40,901 nucleotides of DNA from a virus. Its lineage: Duplodnaviria > Heunggongvirae > Uroviricota > Caudoviricetes. The stretch's first letter is position 1; the number at the start of each line of letters is the position of its first letter. Below, piece after piece: positions 3,289 to 13,611 of this stretch. The position numbers were made by a program, and so were the translations under genes. The notes under the pieces were generated by a model. The model ran no database searches. It saw nothing but the letters and a program-made list of their open reading frames with translations, and had not been told where the DNA came from. The stretch covers positions 1-40,901 of IMG/VR virus record IMGVR_UViG_2563366888_000019, one strand, 5' to 3'.

Positions 3289-3585
3289 TCAAATAGAGAA
3301 ATAAACACAAAAACAAAAAACAACAGGAACAGCAAAATCCAACAGACTTCCCACATCCCACACGCGTGGATCAAAACCTCCCCACCACGGCATGTTGATA
3401 CGTTTCCCTTTCCCAAACTTTTCTATCCAGCGATATTCTGCCTGGGTGTGTTCACGCGCAATGAAGAACGTACAACCGGCTATCGCACCGTAAGCCCAGT
3501 TTCCGGTAAAAATACCAACCAGTACCTGAGCCGCAAAAGCGCAAAGCGAGTGAAGAAATGGAGTGACATCAATGCTCTTAATCAT
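3289..3585 (-). CDS. small membrane protein translationally coupled to tailspike (98 aa)
   Basis: ATG overlaps tailspike stop (ATGA); hydrophobic helices. Confidence 0.45.
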   Translation of the reverse strand: MIKSIDVTPFLHSLCAFAAQVLVGIFTGNWAYGAIAGCTFFIAREHTQAEYRWIEKFGKGKRINMPWWGGFDPRVWDVGSLLDFAVPVVFCFCVYFSI

Positions 3586-5771
3586 GAAACTTCCCCATTG
3601 GTTGAAAATATGGCTCCTCCAACGCCAAGTGTATTTCGTGTTGTGCTCAACCTCAGAGGGCTGGAGTCAGAATTAGAATATCCTGTAGCAGAAATAAAAG
3701 ATCCTCCACTAATAGTCAACTGCGGAACATCGGCTATATCTGAATAAGTTCTGTCAGCAACAGTATTATTTATAGCCACATATGATCCAAAAAAACTTCT
3801 TATTGTTTGGTTTTTAACTTTACTTCCTTCAATGGTTATCCTACTACCACAGTCGGCAATAAATCCTGAATCTGCATCCAGCGTTGCATTCATAAAAGAA
3901 GCTTCAGATCTCTCTACATCAATCCATCTAATATCTTTTGTGGGATTTGCACCAAATACATGACAAATATTAGAGTTAAACCTTACACCATCTTGGAGGT
4001 GCATTAATTTTTTTATATCTGTACCCCATAGCCTTGGAAAATTAACAGATGCTCCTGCATGGCAATCAAATCCCAGCTCAGCCCCTGAGATATCTACAGC
4101 CTTTCCTGAAATAACAGCACCAGTGTCTGCATTAACGGCTGTTCCACAATTGCGCATATCATTACCAGCAACATCAACGCAACCCGCACCATCAATACGC
4201 ACACCAAGTGCACATCCATAAAAACCTTTTTCAATATTTGGTTCAAGGACTTTACCACTTGTTTCTGCATCACTTTCTTCAACGTCATGTCGTCTTGCAT
4301 CAACATATGCTGTATGAATGCAGGTTAATCCACGATATGAGCAATGTATAGTTTTATGGTCGCGTATATTAACATTTGAACCATCTCTTACATTCCATCC
4401 TATATAACAATAGATTGCACTTGACCCCTGAAAATCTGCTTTAACATTATAAATACAATTAACTGACGCAACCGTACTCTCTGTGCACCGTTCAAACTTG
4501 CTTACAGGCATTGATGCCTTGACATTATTTACCAGTTGCAGGGAAGAGTATCTGCTATAAGAAAAATCACATACGTAATATCCTTCTGGCATATATGCAG
4601 CAACACTTTCCTCATCAGGAGCACATCCGGTATGATATGCACTAATTTTTGCACCAAAACTACCATGAATTCCAACGTAGAACTTTCGAGCACCTGAATA
4701 CGGATAGAAATTAAGTTCAGCTTTTTGAGTTACAATAAATGCACAAACATCGCTATCATCTCTATTTTCTTCGATCTGAATAGCAAATACAGGACTTTTT
4801 GCTGCATCGCAAATGTAAAATAAATACTTGTATTCGTAATACGTTCTAACGATTTTAGTAAACAAACGAGTGTCAGAGAAAACCACTGAGTCTTCTGATG
4901 TTATTTTAATCCAAGACAAATCAACACCTGAACTGAATTCAATTTGATAGTTGATAATATGCCCGGTCTTAATTCTTATTTCGCAGAAAGCATTACCACC
5001 ATCCCACATAGGTCTCATTGACTGGGCTGCAATGATTGCATCTTTGAGTGTAGGGTAATCACCCCATTCGCCAACAGTAATAACAAAAGTATAATATGAG
5101 TTAAAAACAGCGGCATTTTTGCCTTTGGATATCAACTCCTTAATCATAAAAATATTATCTTCGTAATCACAAGGAGAAATTATATCCCTCATTTTGCTTT
5201 GAAATGTTCGTTGTCTTGCCCCGCTTCCTGACGGTATAAACCAACCAAAACCACCAACAACCCCGGCGATTGCAGCATCGACATAATTACGCATTGAGCG
5301 ATTATTTACAGCGTCCTGCTCAAATGATGGATCTGCAAGGTTAGAAATTTTGTTTTGCTTTGCATCGTAATATTTTGCAAGCAAAGATGGTTTCATCAAT
5401 GCACGTCTGAACCACCCAAAACATCGCTGGATCAGCATCGTCAGGTAGTCAAATGCATCTTCATGAACTTCGGGGAAAAATTTTCCCTGATTGCGAAGAT
5501 CAGTCTCCTGCACCACATCAAGCACACGCTCTATCGTAATTCGCCAGCCAGCAGCAAGCGGCGACGGGAGAACCACTTCACCGCCACTATAAGTGCCCGC
5601 TCCAGTTACCTTATAACCGGTATCCAGAACCAATTCTGTTACGTTCCCGTTCAGGTCAGACACCTGAACAACCAGGTCTGATTTTTTGAAAATACGGAAG
5701 GTATACGGAAACGATGTCGTAACGCCGTTACCGGTGTATTCGTTGTGGTCAACTTCGGTTGAGACCGTCAT
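3582..5771 (-). CDS. tailspike / tail fibre with T7-type N-terminal adaptor and beta-helix-like C-terminal domain (729 aa)
   Basis: N-terminal ~120 aa resemble the conserved podovirus tail-fibre adaptor domain; C-terminal part AT-rich, Gly/Asn/Ser/Cys-rich. Confidence 0.8.
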   Translation of the reverse strand: MTVSTEVDHNEYTGNGVTTSFPYTFRIFKKSDLVVQVSDLNGNVTELVLDTGYKVTGAGTYSGGEVVLPSPLAAGWRITIERVLDVVQETDLRNQGKFFPEVHEDAFDYLTMLIQRCFGWFRRALMKPSLLAKYYDAKQNKISNLADPSFEQDAVNNRSMRNYVDAAIAGVVGGFGWFIPSGSGARQRTFQSKMRDIISPCDYEDNIFMIKELISKGKNAAVFNSYYTFVITVGEWGDYPTLKDAIIAAQSMRPMWDGGNAFCEIRIKTGHIINYQIEFSSGVDLSWIKITSEDSVVFSDTRLFTKIVRTYYEYKYLFYICDAAKSPVFAIQIEENRDDSDVCAFIVTQKAELNFYPYSGARKFYVGIHGSFGAKISAYHTGCAPDEESVAAYMPEGYYVCDFSYSRYSSLQLVNNVKASMPVSKFERCTESTVASVNCIYNVKADFQGSSAIYCYIGWNVRDGSNVNIRDHKTIHCSYRGLTCIHTAYVDARRHDVEESDAETSGKVLEPNIEKGFYGCALGVRIDGAGCVDVAGNDMRNCGTAVNADTGAVISGKAVDISGAELGFDCHAGASVNFPRLWGTDIKKLMHLQDGVRFNSNICHVFGANPTKDIRWIDVERSEASFMNATLDADSGFIADCGSRITIEGSKVKNQTIRSFFGSYVAINNTVADRTYSDIADVPQLTISGGSFISATGYSNSDSSPLRLSTTRNTLGVGGAIFSTNGEVS

Positions 5772-6247: not shown

Positions 6248-6754
6248 TTAACAGTCGTAAAATTCTGGGTCCCACAAACTTGCATCGCGCGGCATGGATT
6301 CTAACTTTTTCAGCCGCAAAATTCTGTCACACTCGACAACTAATTTTTGCTTCTGCTCGTCAATTTCTACTGTCTTATGCGCTGGTTCATCCCAATAATC
6401 CAGAAGGAAGGCATGGCGTTCAGATGTGACCAGATAAATCACATACACGTCACTGGTTGGGATCTTTTTATGCTTGTTAGTGGTCTTGTCTTTCTTCCCA
6501 GACGCCCAGTTTTTCCAGCATTGTTCCGTACCGCTCTCACCAAACTTGTCAGTATAGTTTCCGATGTTTAAGTGAACGTGGCGTATGTGATATTCCAGCA
6601 TCTCTTTCGGTGGATCTCGAAACAGAGTGTCCTTTCCGAAATCCTTATGATGACCGTAGCGCCAGTGATCTATGAACGCGTTTTTGATAGGTATTAGCTC
6701 AGGGTCCTTCCCAAAAATTCCAGGGTGAACCAACCCCTGGAATTTATTCGGCAT
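6248..6754 (-). CDS. YafO-toxin-like protein, candidate toxin/abortive-infection effector (168 aa)
   Basis: IFGKD, YHIRHVHL and DEPAHK segments resemble the YafO mRNA interferase family as recalled from memory; overlaps upstream gene by 11 bp. Confidence 0.45.
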   Translation of the reverse strand: MPNKFQGLVHPGIFGKDPELIPIKNAFIDHWRYGHHKDFGKDTLFRDPPKEMLEYHIRHVHLNIGNYTDKFGESGTEQCWKNWASGKKDKTTNKHKKIPTSDVYVIYLVTSERHAFLLDYWDEPAHKTVEIDEQKQKLVVECDRILRLKKLESMPRDASLWDPEFYDC

Positions 6755-7271
6755 CGTCGTAGAGCTCCTGAGCCATGTCTTCAGCAGTGCGTGCAAACAT
6801 CCTGCGCGAGATTGCATGGGATTTCTCTACGGACATCTTTGGGACCTCATGCATAACAAGTTGATGAGTTTTCTCATCAACTTGAAGTGGCTTGTATAAA
6901 CGTTGCCACCTTTCGTTAATTTTATCCTTAAAGCCAGCGAAACCACTTTCCTGACTCTTGTATCCAAAATGAGATAAAGCCAAATTCCTTTCCATTTCAT
7001 TCCTAATGTACTCAGCAAGGTTGCAGTGGAATACTTCCCCTTGTTTTTTTAGGCATGCTTCATGGTCTGTAACACTGTGACGGCTCTCATATAAGTAAAT
7101 GCGATAGGAATTTTTATTATCCTCTTCTTCATAATTTCTAATCGCATCAGCAGTTGCCATAGCTGCAGCATAAGCGGCTGCTTCAATCACCATCTCTTGC
7201 TCTTTTTCTTTTTCAGGCCTTTTCAAGGCAAAGCGTCTATGCCTCATCGCTGTAACTCTCTTCGTGTTCAT
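6744..7271 (-). CDS. hypothetical protein, upstream partner of YafO-like gene (175 aa)
   Basis: AT-rich ORF, ATG at 7271 preceded by palindrome site 2; no recognisable motif. Confidence 0.5.
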   Translation of the reverse strand: MNTKRVTAMRHRRFALKRPEKEKEQEMVIEAAAYAAAMATADAIRNYEEEDNKNSYRIYLYESRHSVTDHEACLKKQGEVFHCNLAEYIRNEMERNLALSHFGYKSQESGFAGFKDKINERWQRLYKPLQVDEKTHQLVMHEVPKMSVEKSHAISRRMFARTAEDMAQELYDDAE

Positions 7272-7282
7272 GGGCACCCCCA

Positions 7283-7299
7283 ACTACCTTTAGGGTAAA
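7283..7299. promoter_or_regulatory. operator-like palindrome ACTACCTTTAGGGTAAA (site 2, degenerate)
   Basis: 12 bp upstream of ATG of 6744..7271. Confidence 0.45.
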
Positions 7300-8500: not shown

Positions 8501-8689
8501 ATGGAAATCAACATCATTACATTGCTGAAGGCCATTATTGGCGGAGCGGGCTTAGGCTTTGCCCTACCAGGCGGATTATCTTTCCTGCTTCCTGCTTTTA
8601 CTGTTACAGCTGGGATAGCCTATGCATTTGCTGTGGCTGGTGCTGTTGCACTCCCTGCTATCTATGCCGCAAAGAAGTTAGCCAACTAA
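8501..8689 (+). CDS. small Gly/Ala-rich hydrophobic peptide (62 aa), possible membrane-active peptide or toxin
   Basis: GGGGG SD; N-terminal 15 aa end in GG (double-glycine-leader-like), rest is GxxxG-rich hydrophobic with KKLAN tail. Confidence 0.45.
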   Translation: MEINIITLLKAIIGGAGLGFALPGGLSFLLPAFTVTAGIAYAFAVAGAVALPAIYAAKKLAN

Positions 8690-8690
8690 A

Positions 8691-9023
8691 ATGCCTGATT
8701 TATCTTGGCTTGCGCCCAGAGATGCACAGCAATTGACAAGGTTTTATTTCATACTGTGCATTGCTTATCTTGCTGTTCATCTGATATGGGATGCCGTTTG
8801 CAAAGATACGCCTCCTTTTTCTTTGGATAAGTTGCAATACAAGATGAATGAGGTTTATTCATCATCTACTTTTGCAACCAGCGCATTCTTCATTGTTATT
8901 CTGTTCGATATGAAGAATCCACTGAGAACTTCAGATGCTTTCATATTCCCATTAATTATTGCTGCTCTAACTGGCTTTATGATCTCATTATCAGCAATAG
9001 TGCCAAAGAAAGTAAATAACTGA
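8691..9023 (+). CDS. 3-TM membrane protein (110 aa), possible immunity or partner protein
   Basis: start 2 nt after stop of 8501..8689; three hydrophobic helices; terminator follows. Confidence 0.5.
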   Translation: MPDLSWLAPRDAQQLTRFYFILCIAYLAVHLIWDAVCKDTPPFSLDKLQYKMNEVYSSSTFATSAFFIVILFDMKNPLRTSDAFIFPLIIAALTGFMISLSAIVPKKVNN

Positions 9024-9026
9024 ATA

Positions 9027-9049
9027 AGCCCGCGTTGCGGGCTTTTTTA
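9027..9049 (+). terminator. rho-independent terminator
   Basis: AAGCCCGC-GTTG-GCGGGCTT stem-loop plus T6. Confidence 0.7.
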
Positions 9050-9120
9050 TGGACGAAACAAAAGTCAGTGCTACACTCATTGACGCCACATTGAGGTGGT
9101 TTATAGATGGAAATTTCACA

Positions 9121-9282
9121 ATGAAAAAAGCATTTGCTGCACTGTTCGTTTTGTTGTCTCTGGTAGCTTCAACTCAGGCCTTTGCCGGTCGTTGTCAGCA
9201 CGACAGCGACACTGCTGCTGACGGCTCCCGCTGCGGTGGGCGTTCTGCGGATTCCCGCCCAGGCGGCGGTGGCATTCGTTAA
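9121..9282 (+). CDS. small secreted Gly/Arg-rich peptide precursor (53 aa)
   Basis: Sec-type signal peptide ending AFA; mature ~31 aa with 2 Cys; TTGACG-N16-TATAGA promoter-like upstream; weak SD. Confidence 0.35.
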   Translation: MKKAFAALFVLLSLVASTQAFAGRCQHDSDTAADGSRCGGRSADSRPGGGGIR

Positions 9283-9288
9283 AAACAA

Positions 9289-9304
9289 GGCCGCGAAAGC
9301 GGCC
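9289..9304. terminator. hairpin GGCCGCGAAAGCGGCC (copy 2 of 2)
   Basis: identical to 6231..6246; between convergent 9121..9282 and 9319..9768. Confidence 0.55.
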
Positions 9305-9318
9305 TGTGACATGTCACG

Positions 9319-9768
9319 CTACTTGCGAAATCTTTCTTTACCCTTCCAGCCAGTAGATGTTAGTTCAGGATGAATGGTTCCCAATATAAAGCCAACCATA
9401 GCGGAGCGAGGATCTTCTATTTTATCCGTTAATTCTTCGGCATAACTCACAGGCAACCAAGCAACAAGATCACCAATCCTCAGCTTTGGTCCTTTGCTGT
9501 AAGATGAATCGGCAATAACAAAAAATCCACCATCAGCTGAGCACACCTTCAGCATTGCCCTTTGTCTTCCAGAATCTAGCAAAACTGGCTGTTCCCCACT
9601 TGGACCAGGTATGATGATGGCTGGCATTGGTTTATTGGCTGAAAGGCTTGTGTCAAGATACTTACACGCATACTCAAAAGCTGAAAAGTTATCCTTAAAG
9701 ATAAGAGGTTGAATTTTATTGCTAACCTCCTTACCACCGATTAATCTGTTGATCATCTTCTTGAACAT
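9319..9768 (-). CDS. hypothetical protein (149 aa)
   Basis: AGGTGA SD before ATG 9768; no recognisable motif; part of cargo island. Confidence 0.5.
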   Translation of the reverse strand: MFKKMINRLIGGKEVSNKIQPLIFKDNFSAFEYACKYLDTSLSANKPMPAIIIPGPSGEQPVLLDSGRQRAMLKVCSADGGFFVIADSSYSKGPKLRIGDLVAWLPVSYAEELTDKIEDPRSAMVGFILGTIHPELTSTGWKGKERFRK

Positions 9769-9780
9769 AAAGGTCACCTA

Positions 9781-10221
9781 ATGATTAAGCCGATGCACGC
9801 TATTACAGCTACCGTTTTGTTTATCCTACCAATTTTTTCGTTTGCAAACGACATATGTTTTAAGAATTTAATAAATGAGGATATGTGTGCACATGCAAAC
9901 AAAATTGCATCAGAAGCAGGAAAGTCACTTCCCATAAAATTGAATGATAATATGTCTATTGTTTCAATAAATGCAATACTAAACAAACTTTTAGTTGTAG
10001 CGCATCTTAATTACAACAACAGCTATTTATCAAAAGTTTATAACGGTGATGTAACCTTAGAAAATAAATTAAAGAGTGTAATGCGAAATTATTCAAAATC
10101 GAGCATTTGCTCCAACAGGCAAATGAAAGCATTTATTCACCTTGGCGGAGAGATTGAATATAGATATGTATTTAGTGATGGCAATATATTTGATACATAC
10201 GCCATCACTAATTGTGAATAG
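9781..10221 (+). CDS. secreted hypothetical protein (146 aa), very AT-rich
   Basis: N-terminal signal peptide; Asn/Ile/Lys-rich; composition unlike the flanking structural genes. Confidence 0.5.
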   Translation: MIKPMHAITATVLFILPIFSFANDICFKNLINEDMCAHANKIASEAGKSLPIKLNDNMSIVSINAILNKLLVVAHLNYNNSYLSKVYNGDVTLENKLKSVMRNYSKSSICSNRQMKAFIHLGGEIEYRYVFSDGNIFDTYAITNCE

Positions 10222-13200
10222 CTATTTCATCTGCTCTTCAACTTTATTTAGTAACGGTGATATCGCCCACAGGTTCTGAAAAGGTAGCATTTTACGGACC
10301 GCGTGGGTTTGCTGGCTGTCAAATTCTCCGTTAAGTACACCATTCGCAACCGTCGCGGCATCACCGCCAAGATCAAAGGTAGGACCAAGTAAAGCACCAA
10401 TAGCATTACGACTCTGAAACCTTGATACCGGAGGCGCACCAAACATCGCGCCAAGACCAAACCTACCGCCGCTTATGTTCTCAACGGTATTCAGCGGCTC
10501 AGAGAGCCAGCCAAGCATTCCGCCCCGGTCGATCCCCTCTTTCACAAGGTTATTCCAGCTGTAGTCGATATCGCGACCGCTTAACTTCTGTTTCATCATA
10601 TAGACCATTGAGCCAAGCGCAATCGTGCCAAGCGCACCAAGATAGAATGCAGCATCGCCCTGCTGGATACCAGATACTAGCACCCTGTTATGCTGTGCGA
10701 AGATAAACGTTTTGAACTGCGTGATCATCTTCCAGCCTTCTTTACTAAAAAACAGCGGTGTATCACCTACGCCAGGCGTTACAATCACTGAGTCTACATC
10801 TTTCAGCACTGCAGACTGGAAAATCTCTCTAGCGAAACGGTCATCCCACAGATGACTATGCCCGGTTAACAGCCCGTCCATATCCTCTCCGTGCTTCCCG
10901 AATTGCTCCCCGATTCGGCGCAGAACATCTTCATTGATGCCGACCTGTGCCATCTTCCGCATTTCACTTTTGGAGAGCGTGCCACCAGCAGAAACTTGGC
11001 GAGCCGCGTCAAGTATCCTCGACTGCACTATCATCCCGGACCATGATTTAAGTGCGCTGTTCCACTGATTCATCAGCGTCCAGTTACCGAATTTCTGCGT
11101 CATCCAGTTCAGACCTCGCTCAGCGGCGCTTCTCCGGCTATAGGGGTCAGTAAGATCCGCTATAGCCTTTGTACGCGTAGACAGGACATAATCAAGCCCA
11201 ACGGCCATTTCTCGCAAATCCCTGGTTGCAATTTTCACTGAGTCCATATTTTTAAGCATGCTTACCATTGGTCCGAGAGATTTTCTCAGGCCATGCTGCA
11301 TCATCGGTCGCATCAGATCAGTTGCAGCGGAGACAGTCATTCCACCAAGCAAACGGAGGAAGTTAATATTCCTAGCAACTCGCCCGGCACGAACAAAGAA
11401 ACTGCGTGGATCTTGAGGTGCACCGTAAGTACCAAGCAGTCGATCACGCATAGCCGTAATATCCCTAATATCAGCCTCCCGTTGCTTCTCAAGAACTGCA
11501 CGTCGTTTAGGTGTTTTAGCCTCTTTTATTAGCCGGGTATATTCCTCACTAACCTGACGGATTTGCTCCCCCATATCTTTACGGCCAAACTGCGCAGTCA
11601 GCTCAATTTCTGGTGCCACCTGCCGGAGATAACTTTCCATGATGTAGTTAACATCTGATTCAAGAAAATCTTCTATACGCTCATCAGGAATAAGCAGCGT
11701 TCTGCTTTTAGTGAAACCAGCCCGACCAACGAGTCTCTCTGGGATAATATCGGCTGGTACAAGCCCGGAAGGTGCGCCTATTATTTTATTCACGATCTCG
11801 TCAGCAGCGTCCTCTGCTTCCTCTCGGGATAGAGGCTCCATCTGCTTCAGTGCTCGTTCGCGGCTTGCATTCAGCCTTGTGGTTGAATTTGCCCGTTTTT
11901 GCAGTCGGCGAAGCTCAGAACGATATTTCCGTGGATTATCCAGCAACTCCATATGGCGCTGATAGACAGGAAGCTCACTCTTTGCCTGCGCTATATCATC
12001 AAGGCGTGTTTTAAGGTCAGAGCTTTCTTTCATCATTCTTGCCTGAAGTTTTTCTGATGAAGTCTCGGCCAACTCTTTTTCTATTCTTGTAAGACGCGCC
12101 TGTGTGTCAGTCTCCTGAGATATAAGCTTATTTCGTTTATCCAGTTCTTCCATGAGTAGAATTTTTTTACCAGACCATTTCTCCGCTTCAGCGATTTCAC
12201 TAGCGAGAGCATCAGCGCGCGGTGCCGATTCCTCTGCAGTTTTTAGCAATGAATTTATCCTTTCAATTCGCTGACCTGCTTTGTCAGCACCTTTGGCACT
12301 AATCCCTTGTATCCAGTTGGCAATTCGCCCTCTGAATTCAGTGCGGTCGGAAAGTATCTTATCGAACTTATAAATGCGGGGAAGATAACTTTTCGCCGTC
12401 ACGACATCGATATCCTCAGGAAGGATCCCCAGTTCCTGCATACGGGCTTTTGTGGTCTCGAAAATGGGGCGGATTCTGGCGGCTGCTTGTGAAACCTCAG
12501 GAATATCACTCTGATCACCACGGCGCATAGCCATGCCAACAGCTTCATTGAAATCAATAAAGTTCATCCTCTTCACGCCGCGGGCGCTAACAGATTTGCT
12601 GTACTGCTGGTAAGCATCACGAGTGGCTTCCATCTGCTTATAAAGCATGGCGTCGTATTGCTTAATCTTAGTCTCGACTGCCGTAAACGTAGCCAACCCC
12701 TCATCATTTTTGGCGAAGAAATAGTTATTTTCGGCAAGCTGCTGGTTAATCTGACGGGAGACAAGAGATGGTGATTGAGCCAAGCGGCCAGCAGGAGTGA
12801 CACTCAACGTTTTGTTAGCAAGTCCAAGTCCAGCGAGCTGTTCCTGATCGAGTGTGGTATTGAAAACCTGAGCTGCACCAATGCTTTGAGGAGAATCCAT
12901 ACCTCGCAAATGATTACCTACTGAGTTAACCACTGCCTCGCGCGCGCTAGGTCCAGCAAGTAGCTGTGCACCAGCACCAAGGATCCCACCAACGAGAGCA
13001 TCAACAACAACGTTCGATACGCTCTCCATCGGTGAGCGAGCTTCCTGAGTGGCCTGTAATGCGGCTTCTGATACTCCCCCACCAGCAGCATTCGCCAGGG
13101 CAAAACGCCCTGCCGTCTCAGCAATACTTCCTCCACGCGCTACCGCCCCTACAGGGATAAACATTGCAGCCACATTAACCGGGTCTATCATTCCCATTGC

Positions 13201-13611
13201 TAAGCTTGAAATAGTACCAGCACCACCCATTTCAGATAGATATTCTCTATCTGTTCTTTGCTTATCGATTCGATGTTTAATTGCCATTGTTTCTTCATGC
13301 GAACCGGAGTTGATAAACGAATCTGCAAAATCTTCATAGCCTTTAATATCTGCTGCATCGTTATCAAATGGGTTATATCCTTCAACCCTGTCAAACTGAC
13401 TGAAAGGAGCACTGGCAATAAAGCTACCCAGCGTGTTATCTATACGAAATGCTGCTTGTCTAGACCTTTGAACGCGTTGATCACTGGTAAATGGGTTCAC
13501 AGCAGAAAGCAAAGAAGGTGTTTCCATATAGAAATTACTGTCATCAGGTGCTGCTATTTGCTGAATATCCTCGCCAAGCAACTCTTTAGGATCCTGTTCA
13601 TATATCGGCAT
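10222..13611 (-). CDS. large internal virion / ejection protein, gp16-like by position (1129 aa)
   Basis: size and position downstream of gp15-like gene; ATG overlaps upstream stop; coiled-coil-rich. Confidence 0.55.
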   Translation of the reverse strand: MPIYEQDPKELLGEDIQQIAAPDDSNFYMETPSLLSAVNPFTSDQRVQRSRQAAFRIDNTLGSFIASAPFSQFDRVEGYNPFDNDAADIKGYEDFADSFINSGSHEETMAIKHRIDKQRTDREYLSEMGGAGTISSLAMGMIDPVNVAAMFIPVGAVARGGSIAETAGRFALANAAGGGVSEAALQATQEARSPMESVSNVVVDALVGGILGAGAQLLAGPSAREAVVNSVGNHLRGMDSPQSIGAAQVFNTTLDQEQLAGLGLANKTLSVTPAGRLAQSPSLVSRQINQQLAENNYFFAKNDEGLATFTAVETKIKQYDAMLYKQMEATRDAYQQYSKSVSARGVKRMNFIDFNEAVGMAMRRGDQSDIPEVSQAAARIRPIFETTKARMQELGILPEDIDVVTAKSYLPRIYKFDKILSDRTEFRGRIANWIQGISAKGADKAGQRIERINSLLKTAEESAPRADALASEIAEAEKWSGKKILLMEELDKRNKLISQETDTQARLTRIEKELAETSSEKLQARMMKESSDLKTRLDDIAQAKSELPVYQRHMELLDNPRKYRSELRRLQKRANSTTRLNASRERALKQMEPLSREEAEDAADEIVNKIIGAPSGLVPADIIPERLVGRAGFTKSRTLLIPDERIEDFLESDVNYIMESYLRQVAPEIELTAQFGRKDMGEQIRQVSEEYTRLIKEAKTPKRRAVLEKQREADIRDITAMRDRLLGTYGAPQDPRSFFVRAGRVARNINFLRLLGGMTVSAATDLMRPMMQHGLRKSLGPMVSMLKNMDSVKIATRDLREMAVGLDYVLSTRTKAIADLTDPYSRRSAAERGLNWMTQKFGNWTLMNQWNSALKSWSGMIVQSRILDAARQVSAGGTLSKSEMRKMAQVGINEDVLRRIGEQFGKHGEDMDGLLTGHSHLWDDRFAREIFQSAVLKDVDSVIVTPGVGDTPLFFSKEGWKMITQFKTFIFAQHNRVLVSGIQQGDAAFYLGALGTIALGSMVYMMKQKLSGRDIDYSWNNLVKEGIDRGGMLGWLSEPLNTVENISGGRFGLGAMFGAPPVSRFQSRNAIGALLGPTFDLGGDAATVANGVLNGEFDSQQTHAVRKMLPFQNLWAISPLLNKVEEQMK

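What the first reader, a model, noticed from the sequence alone, without database searches (positions are those of the whole stretch)
9319..10221. Back-to-back pair of unknown genes at the edge of the cargo island, one secreted and very AT-rich
The start codons are 12 bp apart on opposite strands, so the promoters must lie inside each other's coding sequence. The plus-strand product has a signal peptide and Asn/Ile/Lys-rich composition unlike neighbouring genes, suggesting foreign origin. Neither protein shows a motif I can assign.
Basis: seen in the sequence. Interest (0 to 1): 0.4.

Follow-up and report, generated by a model that had tools for sequence, protein, structure and literature searches.

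The report
Two independent prophage accessory genes, head-to-head
The two back-to-back genes are real but unrelated prophage accessory genes; the AT-rich one encodes a periplasmic protein with the fold of secretin-binding "pilotin" proteins and sits where phage P22 keeps its superinfection-exclusion gene, so it may block entry of rival phages, though nothing here tests that.

Summary
Gene A (9319-9768, minus strand, 149 aa) and gene B (9781-10221, plus strand, 146 aa) start 12 nt apart. Both are conserved and under purifying selection (Ka/Ks 0.08-0.22).

- **Setting.** The window is an Epsilon15/phiV10-like podovirus prophage.
- **Gene A.** It belongs to a large uncharacterised family (308 clusters at 50% identity, across Proteobacteria). 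Some relatives carry transmembrane N-terminal extensions. Its function is unknown.
- **Not a unit.** A and B occur separately, or split by an arc/ant/mnt module. Only 14 of 120 near-identical E. coli prophages carry them; the four others examined carry a different secreted 283-aa protein.

My best guess is that B is a prophage-expressed periplasmic exclusion factor (about 0.3). Interest is moderate.

The parts
9781..10221 (+). Gene B: 146-aa secreted protein (WP_000595048.1, phrog_8772). The mature domain is predicted to have the AspS/EpsS/PA3611 fold. Four cysteines are invariant: C26, C36, C110 and C145.
9781..9846 (+). Signal peptide of B (residues 1-22; predicted signal peptidase I cleavage SFA|ND; no lipobox).
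   Evidence: Read directly from the sequence. pLDDT is below 50 only for residues 1-25. The same signal peptide is reused on a very divergent mature domain in L013.
9319..9768 (-). Gene A: 149-aa cytoplasmic protein (WP_000473936.1, phrog_9944). It is a member of a large uncharacterised domain family.
9769..9780 (.). 12-nt spacer AAAGGTCACCTA between the two start codons. It contains both Shine-Dalgarno sequences, arranged as an imperfect palindrome.
   Evidence: The junction is conserved in L025 and L013 (12 nt) and is similar in Cedecea L009 (19 nt).
9288..9305 (-). Intrinsic terminator following gene A: GGCCGC-UUUC-GCGGCC followed by UUGUUUUUA. On the plus strand the same hairpin has no U-tail.
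   Evidence: The same stretch is annotated as 'terminator' in phage phiV10.
10222..13611 (-). Neighbouring gene for the 1129-aa T7 gp16-like internal virion (ejection) protein. Its stop codon directly abuts the stop codon of B. This linkage is conserved in every lineage found that carries a B-family gene.
   Evidence: phrog_342, E 2.9e-235

Best explanation
The two ORFs are two independent accessory genes of an Epsilon15/phiV10-like temperate podovirus. They happen to abut here because this lineage lacks the arc-ant/mnt (immI-like) module that separates them in Klebsiella relatives.

**Gene B**
- It is an AT-rich, horizontally acquired gene embedded antisense at the very end of the late (virion) transcription unit.
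- Its product is exported by a signal-peptidase-I signal peptide. It is predicted to fold in the periplasm into the disulfide-stabilised alpha/beta fold of PA3611 and of the AspS/EpsS pilotins, proteins whose groove clamps the C-terminal helical S-domain of an outer-membrane channel protein.
- B is soluble (no lipid anchor), like PA3611.
- The mechanism I commit to is inferred, at roughly 0.3 probability. B would be expressed from the prophage and act as a periplasmic superinfection-exclusion factor. It would bind a helical segment of the ejected internal-virion proteins (the gp14/15/16-like conduit) of incoming related podoviruses, stop the trans-envelope channel from forming, and so block DNA entry after adsorption. 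This would make it a functional analogue of P22 SieA, not a homologue.

**Gene A**
- It is the last gene of the late or ant-side transcription unit and ends at its own terminator.
- It belongs to a widespread uncharacterised cytoplasmic domain family. The aromatic and basic N-termini of its members, and the transmembrane-anchored relatives, suggest action at the cytoplasmic face of the inner membrane. Its role is not known.

**Shown versus inferred**
- Shown from sequence and genome comparison: gene reality, composition, conserved linkage to the ejection-protein gene, the sieA-equivalent position, and independent occurrence of A and B.
- Predicted, not measured: B's signal peptide (read from the sequence) and its fold (AlphaFold model).
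- Inferred: periplasmic disulfides, expression in the lysogen, the target of B, and the exclusion phenotype.
For: **Reality and selection**
-.

**Fold of B**
- The model has pLDDT above 90 across the mature domain.
- Foldseek gives PA3611 E 4.8e-8 (TM 0.80), EpsS 6i2v E 5.6e-7 and AspS E 3.3e-6, with the next hit at E 0.14.
- The order of secondary-structure elements, including an extra helix after beta3, matches the description of PA3611 in PMC3542185.
- The invariant C110...C145 pair (35 residues apart, the second at the C-terminus) parallels the conserved AspS Cys74-Cys111 disulfide.

**Conserved linkage**
- In E. coli, Klebsiella, Providencia, Cedecea, Salmonella, Morganella and metagenomic or viral contigs, the B-family gene is convergent with the last internal-virion-protein gene. 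The gap is 0-86 nt in the called loci and larger by tblastn in L026.
- This holds even where the other flank is a terminase gene.
- That neighbouring protein matches phrog_342, 'internal virion protein'.

**sieA-equivalent position**
- In Klebsiella L006-L008 the order is: virion gene | B, preceded on its own strand by an Mnt-like Arc-family gene (11-nt gap) | arc, ant, A.
- A promoter-like site lies in the arc/mnt intergenic region.
- The P22 record shows 16 | sieA, orf59a, mnt | arc, ant, 9.
- SieA blocks DNA entry through ejection proteins gp16 and gp20 (PMC10883804).

**Signs of an arms race**
- The family is narrow and fast-diverging, with pairwise identities from 26% to 82%.
- A very divergent mature domain sits behind an identical signal peptide in L013.
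- The slot is polymorphic. Only 14 of 120 E. coli prophages with a virion gene at least 98.7% identical (119 of them 99% or more) carry A+B. The other four examined carry a different 283-aa protein with a signal peptide.

**Independence of A and B**
-.

**Transcription layout**
-.
Against: - No experiment or expression data bears on any of this, and the exclusion role rests on position and analogy.
- The closest structural relatives bind secretins, not phage proteins.
- The function of PA3611 itself is unsettled.
- B shows no sequence-level membership in T2SSS_2 or DUF4146. The best result is E 0.12 in 1 of 16 members, and a profile search against PDB sequences found nothing.
- B is soluble and unrelated to SieA, which is an inner-membrane protein.
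- Linkage to the virion gene could simply reflect a favoured moron insertion site at the end of the late operon.
- The slot content varies among prophages with identical virion genes, so B does not co-vary with its proposed target at short range.
- No convincing promoter for B was found in this window.
- For A, nothing beyond family size and architecture is known, and its structure model was unusable (pLDDT 52).
Confidence: 0.4

Rival explanations
1. B is a soluble pilotin mimic that acts on a host secretin. It would bind the S-domain of GspD-type, type IV pilus or filamentous-phage secretins without delivering them to the outer membrane. That would alter type II secretion or piliation (lysogenic conversion), or exclude secretin- or pilus-dependent phages.
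For: - The only confident structural relatives are secretin pilotins and PA3611.
- AspS binds the secretin S-domain, and PA3611 was proposed to bind lipoprotein secretins (PMC3542185).
- E. coli has an AspS-dependent type II system (same paper).
- One B-family member gives a weak T2SSS_2 hit, E 0.12.
Against: - The B family is found only in podovirus prophages, never next to gsp genes.
- From general knowledge, not tested here: it occurs in Salmonella, Providencia and Morganella hosts, which generally lack AspS-type type II systems.
- This reading does not explain the invariant linkage to the ejection-protein gene.
- There is no lipobox and no sequence membership in the pilotin family.
Confidence: 0.15
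2. B is a generic periplasmic or secreted fitness or virulence moron that benefits the host in its niche. Examples would be envelope stress tolerance or interaction with the animal host, as has been reported for secreted PA3611. It would have no role in phage-phage conflict.
For: - AT-rich composition and presence/absence polymorphism are typical of morons.
- The carrier strains are mostly clinical or animal E. coli isolates.
- PA3611 is reported to be a secreted effector acting on epithelial cells (PMC8860233, listed).
Against: - Strict positional linkage to the ejection-protein gene persists across different genome architectures and hosts.
- B shares an operon with an Mnt-like maintenance repressor in Klebsiella.
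- The alternative cassette in the same slot is also a secreted protein.
Confidence: 0.2
3. A and B form one two-gene module (toxin-antitoxin, toxin-immunity or a defence system) controlled by overlapping divergent promoters inside each other's coding sequences.
For: - The head-to-head junction (12-19 nt) is conserved in four lineages in which A has diverged to 57% and B to about 30% identity.
- Minus-strand promoter-like sites exist inside B.
Against: - Each gene occurs without the other, and in Klebsiella a separate regulatory module splits them.
- The two products are destined for different compartments.
- The wider A family (308 clusters) has no conserved neighbour.
- Neither protein hits PADLOC or any toxin-antitoxin family.
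- Promoter-like matches are no more frequent than chance.
Confidence: 0.05
4. One or both ORFs are spurious and non-coding.
For: None beyond the unusual geometry and the low GC of B.
Against: - Full-length homologues exist in several genera, with invariant cysteines and motifs.
- Ka/Ks is 0.08-0.22.
- B gives a confident fold.
- Both genes have Shine-Dalgarno sequences at correct spacing.
Confidence: 0.01

Closest known systems
PA3611 of Pseudomonas aeruginosa (PDB 3NPD; DUF4146 according to the title of Das et al. 2014, cited)
   Same: - It is periplasmic, with a signal peptide and no lipobox.
- It has an extra helix after beta3.
- It has a conserved disulfide tying helix alpha2 to the C-terminal end.
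   Different: - Only about 14-15% identity, with no HMM-level match.
- B is phage-borne and confined to Enterobacterales, whereas PA3611 is a chromosomal gene specific to Pseudomonas.
- B has a second, N-terminal cysteine pair.
- B ends right after beta5 and lacks helix alpha4.
AspS/EpsS/YghG type II secretion pilotins (PDB 4FTF, 6I2V, 5ZDH; Pfam T2SSS_2, PF16549)
   Same: - Same small size.
- Same periplasmic location.
   Different: - B has no lipobox, so it is not an outer-membrane lipoprotein.
- B is not encoded near gsp genes.
- Its sequence match is below threshold (E 0.12 in 1 of 16 members).
- Whether it binds a secretin is unknown.
P22 SieA superinfection-exclusion protein
   Same: - Same genomic position and orientation: convergent with the last ejection-protein gene and downstream of mnt on the prophage-expressed strand.
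- Similar size (164 aa against 146 aa).
- SieA is known to act on the ejection proteins encoded next door (PMC10883804).
   Different: - No homology (hhalign probability 0.1%).
- SieA is an integral inner-membrane protein, whereas B is predicted to be a soluble periplasmic protein.
- An exclusion phenotype for B has not been tested.
Other envelope-located exclusion proteins encoded as prophage morons (from general knowledge: T5 Llp, phi80 Cor, HK97 gp15, Streptococcus TP-J34 Ltp)
   Same: - Small, exported, prophage- or early-expressed proteins.
- Often AT-rich and embedded among virion genes.
- They block receptor use or DNA entry.
   Different: - Unrelated folds and targets.
- Most are lipoproteins or membrane proteins rather than soluble periplasmic proteins.

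Membership tests
AspS/EpsS pilotins (Pfam T2SSS_2, PF16549) | Alpha/beta fold alpha1-beta1-3-alpha2-alpha3-beta4-5 | tested here: met
   [not shown]
AspS/EpsS pilotins (Pfam T2SSS_2, PF16549) | Sequence match to the family HMM above its gathering score | tested here: not met
   The window protein gave no hit. One of 16 family members scored E 0.12. A profile search against PDB sequences did not find AspS or EpsS.
AspS/EpsS pilotins (Pfam T2SSS_2, PF16549) | Lipoprotein signal peptide (lipobox with Cys at +1) for Lol-dependent outer-membrane targeting | tested here: not met
   The N-terminus reads ...PIFSFA|NDIC. There is no L-[AS]-[GA]-C lipobox, and the first Cys is the 4th mature residue and is invariant as part of a cysteine pair.
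AspS/EpsS pilotins (Pfam T2SSS_2, PF16549) | Encoded with, or acting on, a type II secretin by binding its S-domain | not testable with these tools
   The genomic context is always a podovirus prophage, never a gsp cluster.
AspS/EpsS pilotins and PA3611 | Conserved disulfide linking helix alpha2 to the C-terminal segment (AspS Cys74-Cys111) | tested here: inconclusive
   C110 (end of the long helix H91-111) and C145 (C-terminus) are invariant and 35 residues apart, compared with 37 in AspS. Model coordinates were not inspected.
PA3611 / DUF4146 | Periplasmic, non-lipoprotein version of the fold with an extra helix after beta3 | tested here: met
   [not shown]
PA3611 / DUF4146 | Sequence membership in a family described as Pseudomonas-specific | tested here: not met
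   No Pfam hit for any of 16 members. All homologues are from Enterobacterales or metagenomes.
P22 SieA-type exclusion proteins | Sequence homology and inner-membrane topology | tested here: not met
   hhalign probability 0.1% against P22 SieA. After its signal peptide, B has no hydrophobic segment.
P22 SieA-type exclusion proteins | Gene convergent with the last ejection-protein gene, on the mnt side of an arc-ant/mnt module | tested here: met
   P22 record. Klebsiella loci L006-L008. Stop-to-stop adjacency in the window.
P22 SieA-type exclusion proteins | Blocks DNA entry of superinfecting phage after adsorption | not testable with these tools
   This needs plating and potassium-efflux assays.
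Two-gene toxin-antitoxin or defence module (A+B) | Obligate co-occurrence and co-regulation of the two genes | tested here: not met
   B occurs alone in L003-5 and L014-18. A occurs alone in L010-12. The two are split by three genes in L006-8. No PADLOC or toxin-antitoxin family hits.
Prophage moron | Deviant base composition and presence/absence polymorphism among close relatives | tested here: met
   B has 31.5% GC against 48.5% for the window. The pair is present in 14 of 120 E. coli prophages that share the flanking virion gene at 98.7% identity or more.
Prophage moron | Own promoter and terminator | tested here: inconclusive
   In this window no promoter stands out above chance and there is no plus-strand terminator after B. 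A promoter-like site lies upstream of mnt-B in Klebsiella. A hairpin lies between B and the virion gene in Providencia.

The most novel reading that the evidence does not exclude
B defines a new class of superinfection-exclusion protein: a soluble, phage-encoded derivative of the secretin-pilotin fold. It would wait in the periplasm of the lysogen and clamp a helical segment of the ejected gp15/gp16-like conduit proteins of incoming podoviruses, aborting genome delivery. The neighbouring 283-aa and L013-type secreted proteins would then be alternative alleles of the same exclusion slot, and A might be a membrane-proximal cytoplasmic partner in the same conflict.
Probability: 0.25. Interest if true: 0.65.

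Novelty: new variant of a known kind. Interest (0 to 1): 0.38.

Why it matters
If B does exclude phages, it would be the first soluble periplasmic exclusion factor built on the pilotin fold. It would also give a handle on how podovirus ejection proteins assemble their trans-envelope conduit, a step that is hard to study. The slot next to the gp16-like gene would then be a predictable place to mine exclusion genes in Epsilon15-like and T7-like prophages of clinical Enterobacterales, which matters when choosing therapeutic phages.

Separately, gene A flags a 300-cluster domain family with no Pfam entry and no solved structure. As the evidence stands, these are two ordinary uncharacterised prophage accessory genes, one of which has an informative predicted fold.

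Tried and rejected
- **Sequence libraries.** Pfam, NCBIfam and PADLOC gave nothing for A or B. PHROGs gave only families of unknown function.
- **Profiles against PDB sequences.** Nothing for B, and nothing for A with either a shallow or a deep profile.
- **Viral structure library (BFVD).** No significant match for B.
- **afdb50 fold library.** Not available.
- **Structure of A.** The model built from 11 close sequences had pLDDT 52, so no fold search was attempted.
- **Neighbourhood analysis of A.** Seventeen bacterial genomes showed no recurrent partner; 54 different Pfam families appeared, nearly all only once. Guilt by association therefore failed.
- **Homology to P22.** I tested B against SieA and the 1129-aa virion protein against gp16. 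Neither is related.
- **Promoters.** Searches around the junction gave only weak matches at chance frequency (plus reading by hand).
- **Literature.** No paper mentions either protein accession.

Full report
**1. What is there**

The window is a prophage of the Epsilon15/phiV10 type.
- The cargo region between the tailspike and the virion genes matches pieces of phages EC.W1-9, TL-2011b, phiV10 and vB_EcoP_ZX5.
- The minus-strand genes to the right of the finding are T7-like internal virion proteins:
  - 154 aa, phrog_308;
  - 940 aa, with transglycosylase-type matches (phrog_1044 and phrog_7182);
  - 1129 aa, phrog_342 'internal virion protein', E 2.9e-235.
- The 729-aa tailspike lies at 3582-5771.

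The finding's coordinates hold.
- Gene A is on the minus strand at 9319-9768. Gene B is on the plus strand at 9781-10221.
- The 12-nt spacer AAAGGTCACCTA carries both Shine-Dalgarno sequences as an imperfect palindrome.
- B's stop codon directly touches the stop codon of the 1129-aa gene (10219-10221 and 10222-10224).

**2. Both are real genes**

- PGAP annotates both as hypothetical proteins.
- They match phrog_9944 and phrog_8772 end to end.
- Homologues exist in several genera.
- Ka/Ks is 0.10-0.22 for B and 0.08-0.15 for A.
- B has four invariant cysteines and an invariant LGGE motif across 16 sequences that are 26-82% identical.

**3. Gene B**

Composition and export:
- GC is 31.5% against 48.5% for the window. 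The B-family gene is AT-rich in every host examined (32-38% against 39-53%).
- The N-terminus is a signal-peptidase-I type signal peptide (SFA|ND) with no lipobox.

Predicted fold:
- The AlphaFold model is confident for the mature domain (pLDDT above 90).
- Foldseek independently gives PA3611 (E 4.8e-8, TM 0.80), EpsS (5.6e-7) and AspS (3.3e-6), then nothing better than E 0.14.
- The AspS paper (PMC3542185) describes the same order of elements. It also reports a disulfide conserved in AspS and PA3611, and describes PA3611 as periplasmic, lacking a lipobox and having an extra helix after beta3. B's model and cysteine pattern fit that description.
- At the sequence level B does not belong to either family.

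**4. Where B lives**

Every B-family gene recovered is convergent with the 3' end of the last large internal-virion-protein gene. The sources are E. coli, Klebsiella, Providencia, Cedecea, Salmonella, Morganella, metagenomes and IMG/VR contigs. The gap is 0-86 nt in the called loci and larger by tblastn in L026. This holds even in prophages where the other flank is the terminase genes (L014, L017, L018).

In Klebsiella (L006-L008) the order is:
- the virion gene (minus strand);
- B (plus strand), preceded on the same strand, 11 nt upstream, by a 77-aa Arc-family (Mnt-like) gene;
- then Arc, a P22_AR_N antirepressor and an A homologue, all on the minus strand.

A promoter-like site lies in the arc/mnt intergenic region.

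The annotated P22 record shows the same layout with sieA in B's place: 16 | sieA, orf59a, mnt | arc, ant, 9. SieA is a prophage-expressed protein that blocks DNA entry through ejection proteins gp16 and gp20 (PMC10883804). B is not homologous to SieA, so the resemblance is positional only.

**5. Gene A**

- Close homologues are few. A profile search of 1.84 billion representatives, however, finds 308 clusters with E of 0.001 or better, 171 of them at 1e-10 or better.
- A pattern scan of genomes recovers members in Alpha-, Beta- and Gammaproteobacteria and in one Gemmatimonadota genome.
- About a quarter carry N-terminal extensions. Of 42 domain hits with such extensions, 28 have predicted transmembrane helices.
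- Single examples are fused to a Zeta-toxin/AAA_33 kinase domain or to a zinc ribbon plus transmembrane segments, and one is a tandem duplication.
- Stand-alone members typically begin with an aromatic and basic motif (MFxFxKKKK-like). Of 95, 71 have F or W at residues 2-7 and 44 have a net charge of +3 or more in the first 16 residues. Together with the transmembrane-anchored relatives, this suggests action at the membrane. That is an inference only.
- No Pfam, PDB, PADLOC or NCBIfam relationship was found.
- Neighbourhoods in 17 genomes share nothing.
- The structure model was unusable.

**6. Are they a pair?**

No.
- B occurs without A in Providencia, Morganella and Salmonella-type prophages.
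- A occurs without B in L010-L012, where it directly follows the virion genes on the same strand.
- In Klebsiella the immI-like module separates the two.

The tight junction is nevertheless conserved in the window, L025, L013 (12 nt) and Cedecea L009 (19 nt). In Cedecea, A is 57% and B about 30% identical to the window versions.

In L013 the signal peptide and junction are kept, but the mature domain is so divergent that only a profile comparison hints at homology.

**7. Transcription**

- No terminator lies between the 1129-aa gene and A on the minus strand.
- The GC hairpin at 9305-9288 followed by UUGUUUUUA is a canonical terminator just after A. On the plus strand the same hairpin lacks a U-tail.
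- The simplest reading is that late transcription runs antisense through B into A and stops there. B would be transcribed from the other strand, either from a weak internal promoter or by read-through from the 53-aa gene upstream.
- Promoter-like matches are at chance frequency.

**8. Population view**

- The 3' part of the 1129-aa gene is present in 120 of 5426 complete E. coli genomes. In 119 of them it is at least 99% identical, and in the last 98.7%. Only 14 carry A+B.
- Three sampled others, and phage EC.W1-9, carry one 283-aa gene on the late strand between the same flanks. That protein has an N-terminal signal peptide and belongs to phrog_6118, of unknown function.
- The slot therefore holds interchangeable genes for exported proteins.

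**9. Interpretation**

- Established by sequence and genome comparison: two independent accessory genes, and for B the conserved linkage to the ejection-protein gene and the sieA-equivalent position.
- Predicted, not measured: B's export (read from the signal peptide) and its pilotin/PA3611 fold (AlphaFold model).
- Inferred: B is expressed in the lysogen and interferes with the ejected conduit proteins of superinfecting relatives. I put this at about 0.3.
- The main rivals are a soluble pilotin mimic acting on host secretins (0.15) and a generic host-benefit moron (0.2). A joint A+B module is unlikely (0.05).
- A's role is unknown.

**10. Novelty and score**

- No paper mentions either protein.
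- B is a new, phage-borne, non-lipidated variant of a known fold family, in a suggestive position.
- A is a member of a sizeable domain family that has not been described.
- Nothing here is mechanistically strange, and the 'back-to-back pair' is an accident of module loss or exchange rather than a system. Interest is moderate at 0.38.

Noticed in passing
window 9288-9768 and 10222; loci L001, L048-L050: In most close E. coli relatives the same slot, with the same flanks, holds one 283-aa gene on the late strand instead of A+B. Of 120 prophages sharing the flanking virion gene, 106 lack A+B, and all 4 examined carry this gene. The protein has a signal peptide and belongs to phrog_6118, of unknown function with no Pfam match. 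It looks like an alternative allele of the slot.
   Followed up: partly
L013 4545-4988 (minus strand): A 147-aa protein with the same signal peptide and the same 12-nt junction as B, but a mature domain that diverges immediately after the cleavage site. It keeps a C...C-D C-terminus but lacks the N-terminal cysteine pair. hhalign probability to the B family is 86%, mostly from the signal peptide.
   Followed up: partly
window 9306-9317: A perfect 12-bp palindrome, GTGACATGTCAC, lies between the terminator hairpin and the stop codon of gene A. It lies inside window 9262-9320, the segment that matches phiV10 at 96.6% identity. It could be a protein-binding site or part of the terminator structure.
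   Followed up: no
window 9123-9282 (plus strand; long ORF from 9049): A small secreted Gly/Cys/Asp-rich protein (53 aa from MKKAFAALFVLL...; phrog_14503 'membrane associated protein', and phrog_3117). It is preceded by a TTGACG-16-TATAGA promoter-like site at 9080-9107. Its transcript could read through the tail-less hairpin into antisense A and then B.
   Followed up: no
window 8501-8689 and 8691-9023 (plus strand), terminator 9026-9044: Two adjacent small hydrophobic membrane proteins (phrog_13406 and phrog_36716, unknown function) followed by a strong intrinsic terminator. This pair is replaced by a YafO-family toxin pair in strain 2/0 (L002) and in L050, and by a DUF2335 protein in L049, so the cargo region is mosaic even among prophages that share A+B.
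   Followed up: no
window 6248-6817 and 6744-7283 (minus strand): Two overlapping ORFs that correspond in position to the YafO-family toxin and its upstream partner annotated in the related strain 2/0. They probably form a toxin-antitoxin pair within the cargo region.
   Followed up: no
window 10222-13611 (minus strand): PGAP names this 1129-aa protein 'DUF919 family protein'. The name rests on a 46-residue match (E 5.4e-5, residues 530-575) to a nucleopolyhedrovirus family. The protein is really a T7 gp16-like internal virion protein (phrog_342, E 2.9e-235), so the DUF919 label looks like an annotation artefact.
   Followed up: partly
P0034, P0056, P0064 and others; L028 4405-4896: The gene A domain family includes a tandem duplication (P0034), a zinc-ribbon plus transmembrane fusion (P0056) and a Zeta-toxin/AAA_33 kinase fusion (P0064). 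In Scandinavium (L028) a 53%-identical homologue lies about 1.1 kb from a Tlde1-domain (type VI effector-like) gene. These are hints of a role in conflict systems, but no pattern recurs.
   Followed up: partly
L003 6546-6566: In Providencia prophages a GC-rich hairpin (AATCCCGC-TTTTG-GCGGGATT) sits in the 46-nt gap between the B-family gene and the virion gene, where it could terminate both convergent transcripts. The E. coli window has no such element. The Providencia B protein also carries a 33-residue Lys/Asn/Pro-rich C-terminal extension.
   Followed up: no
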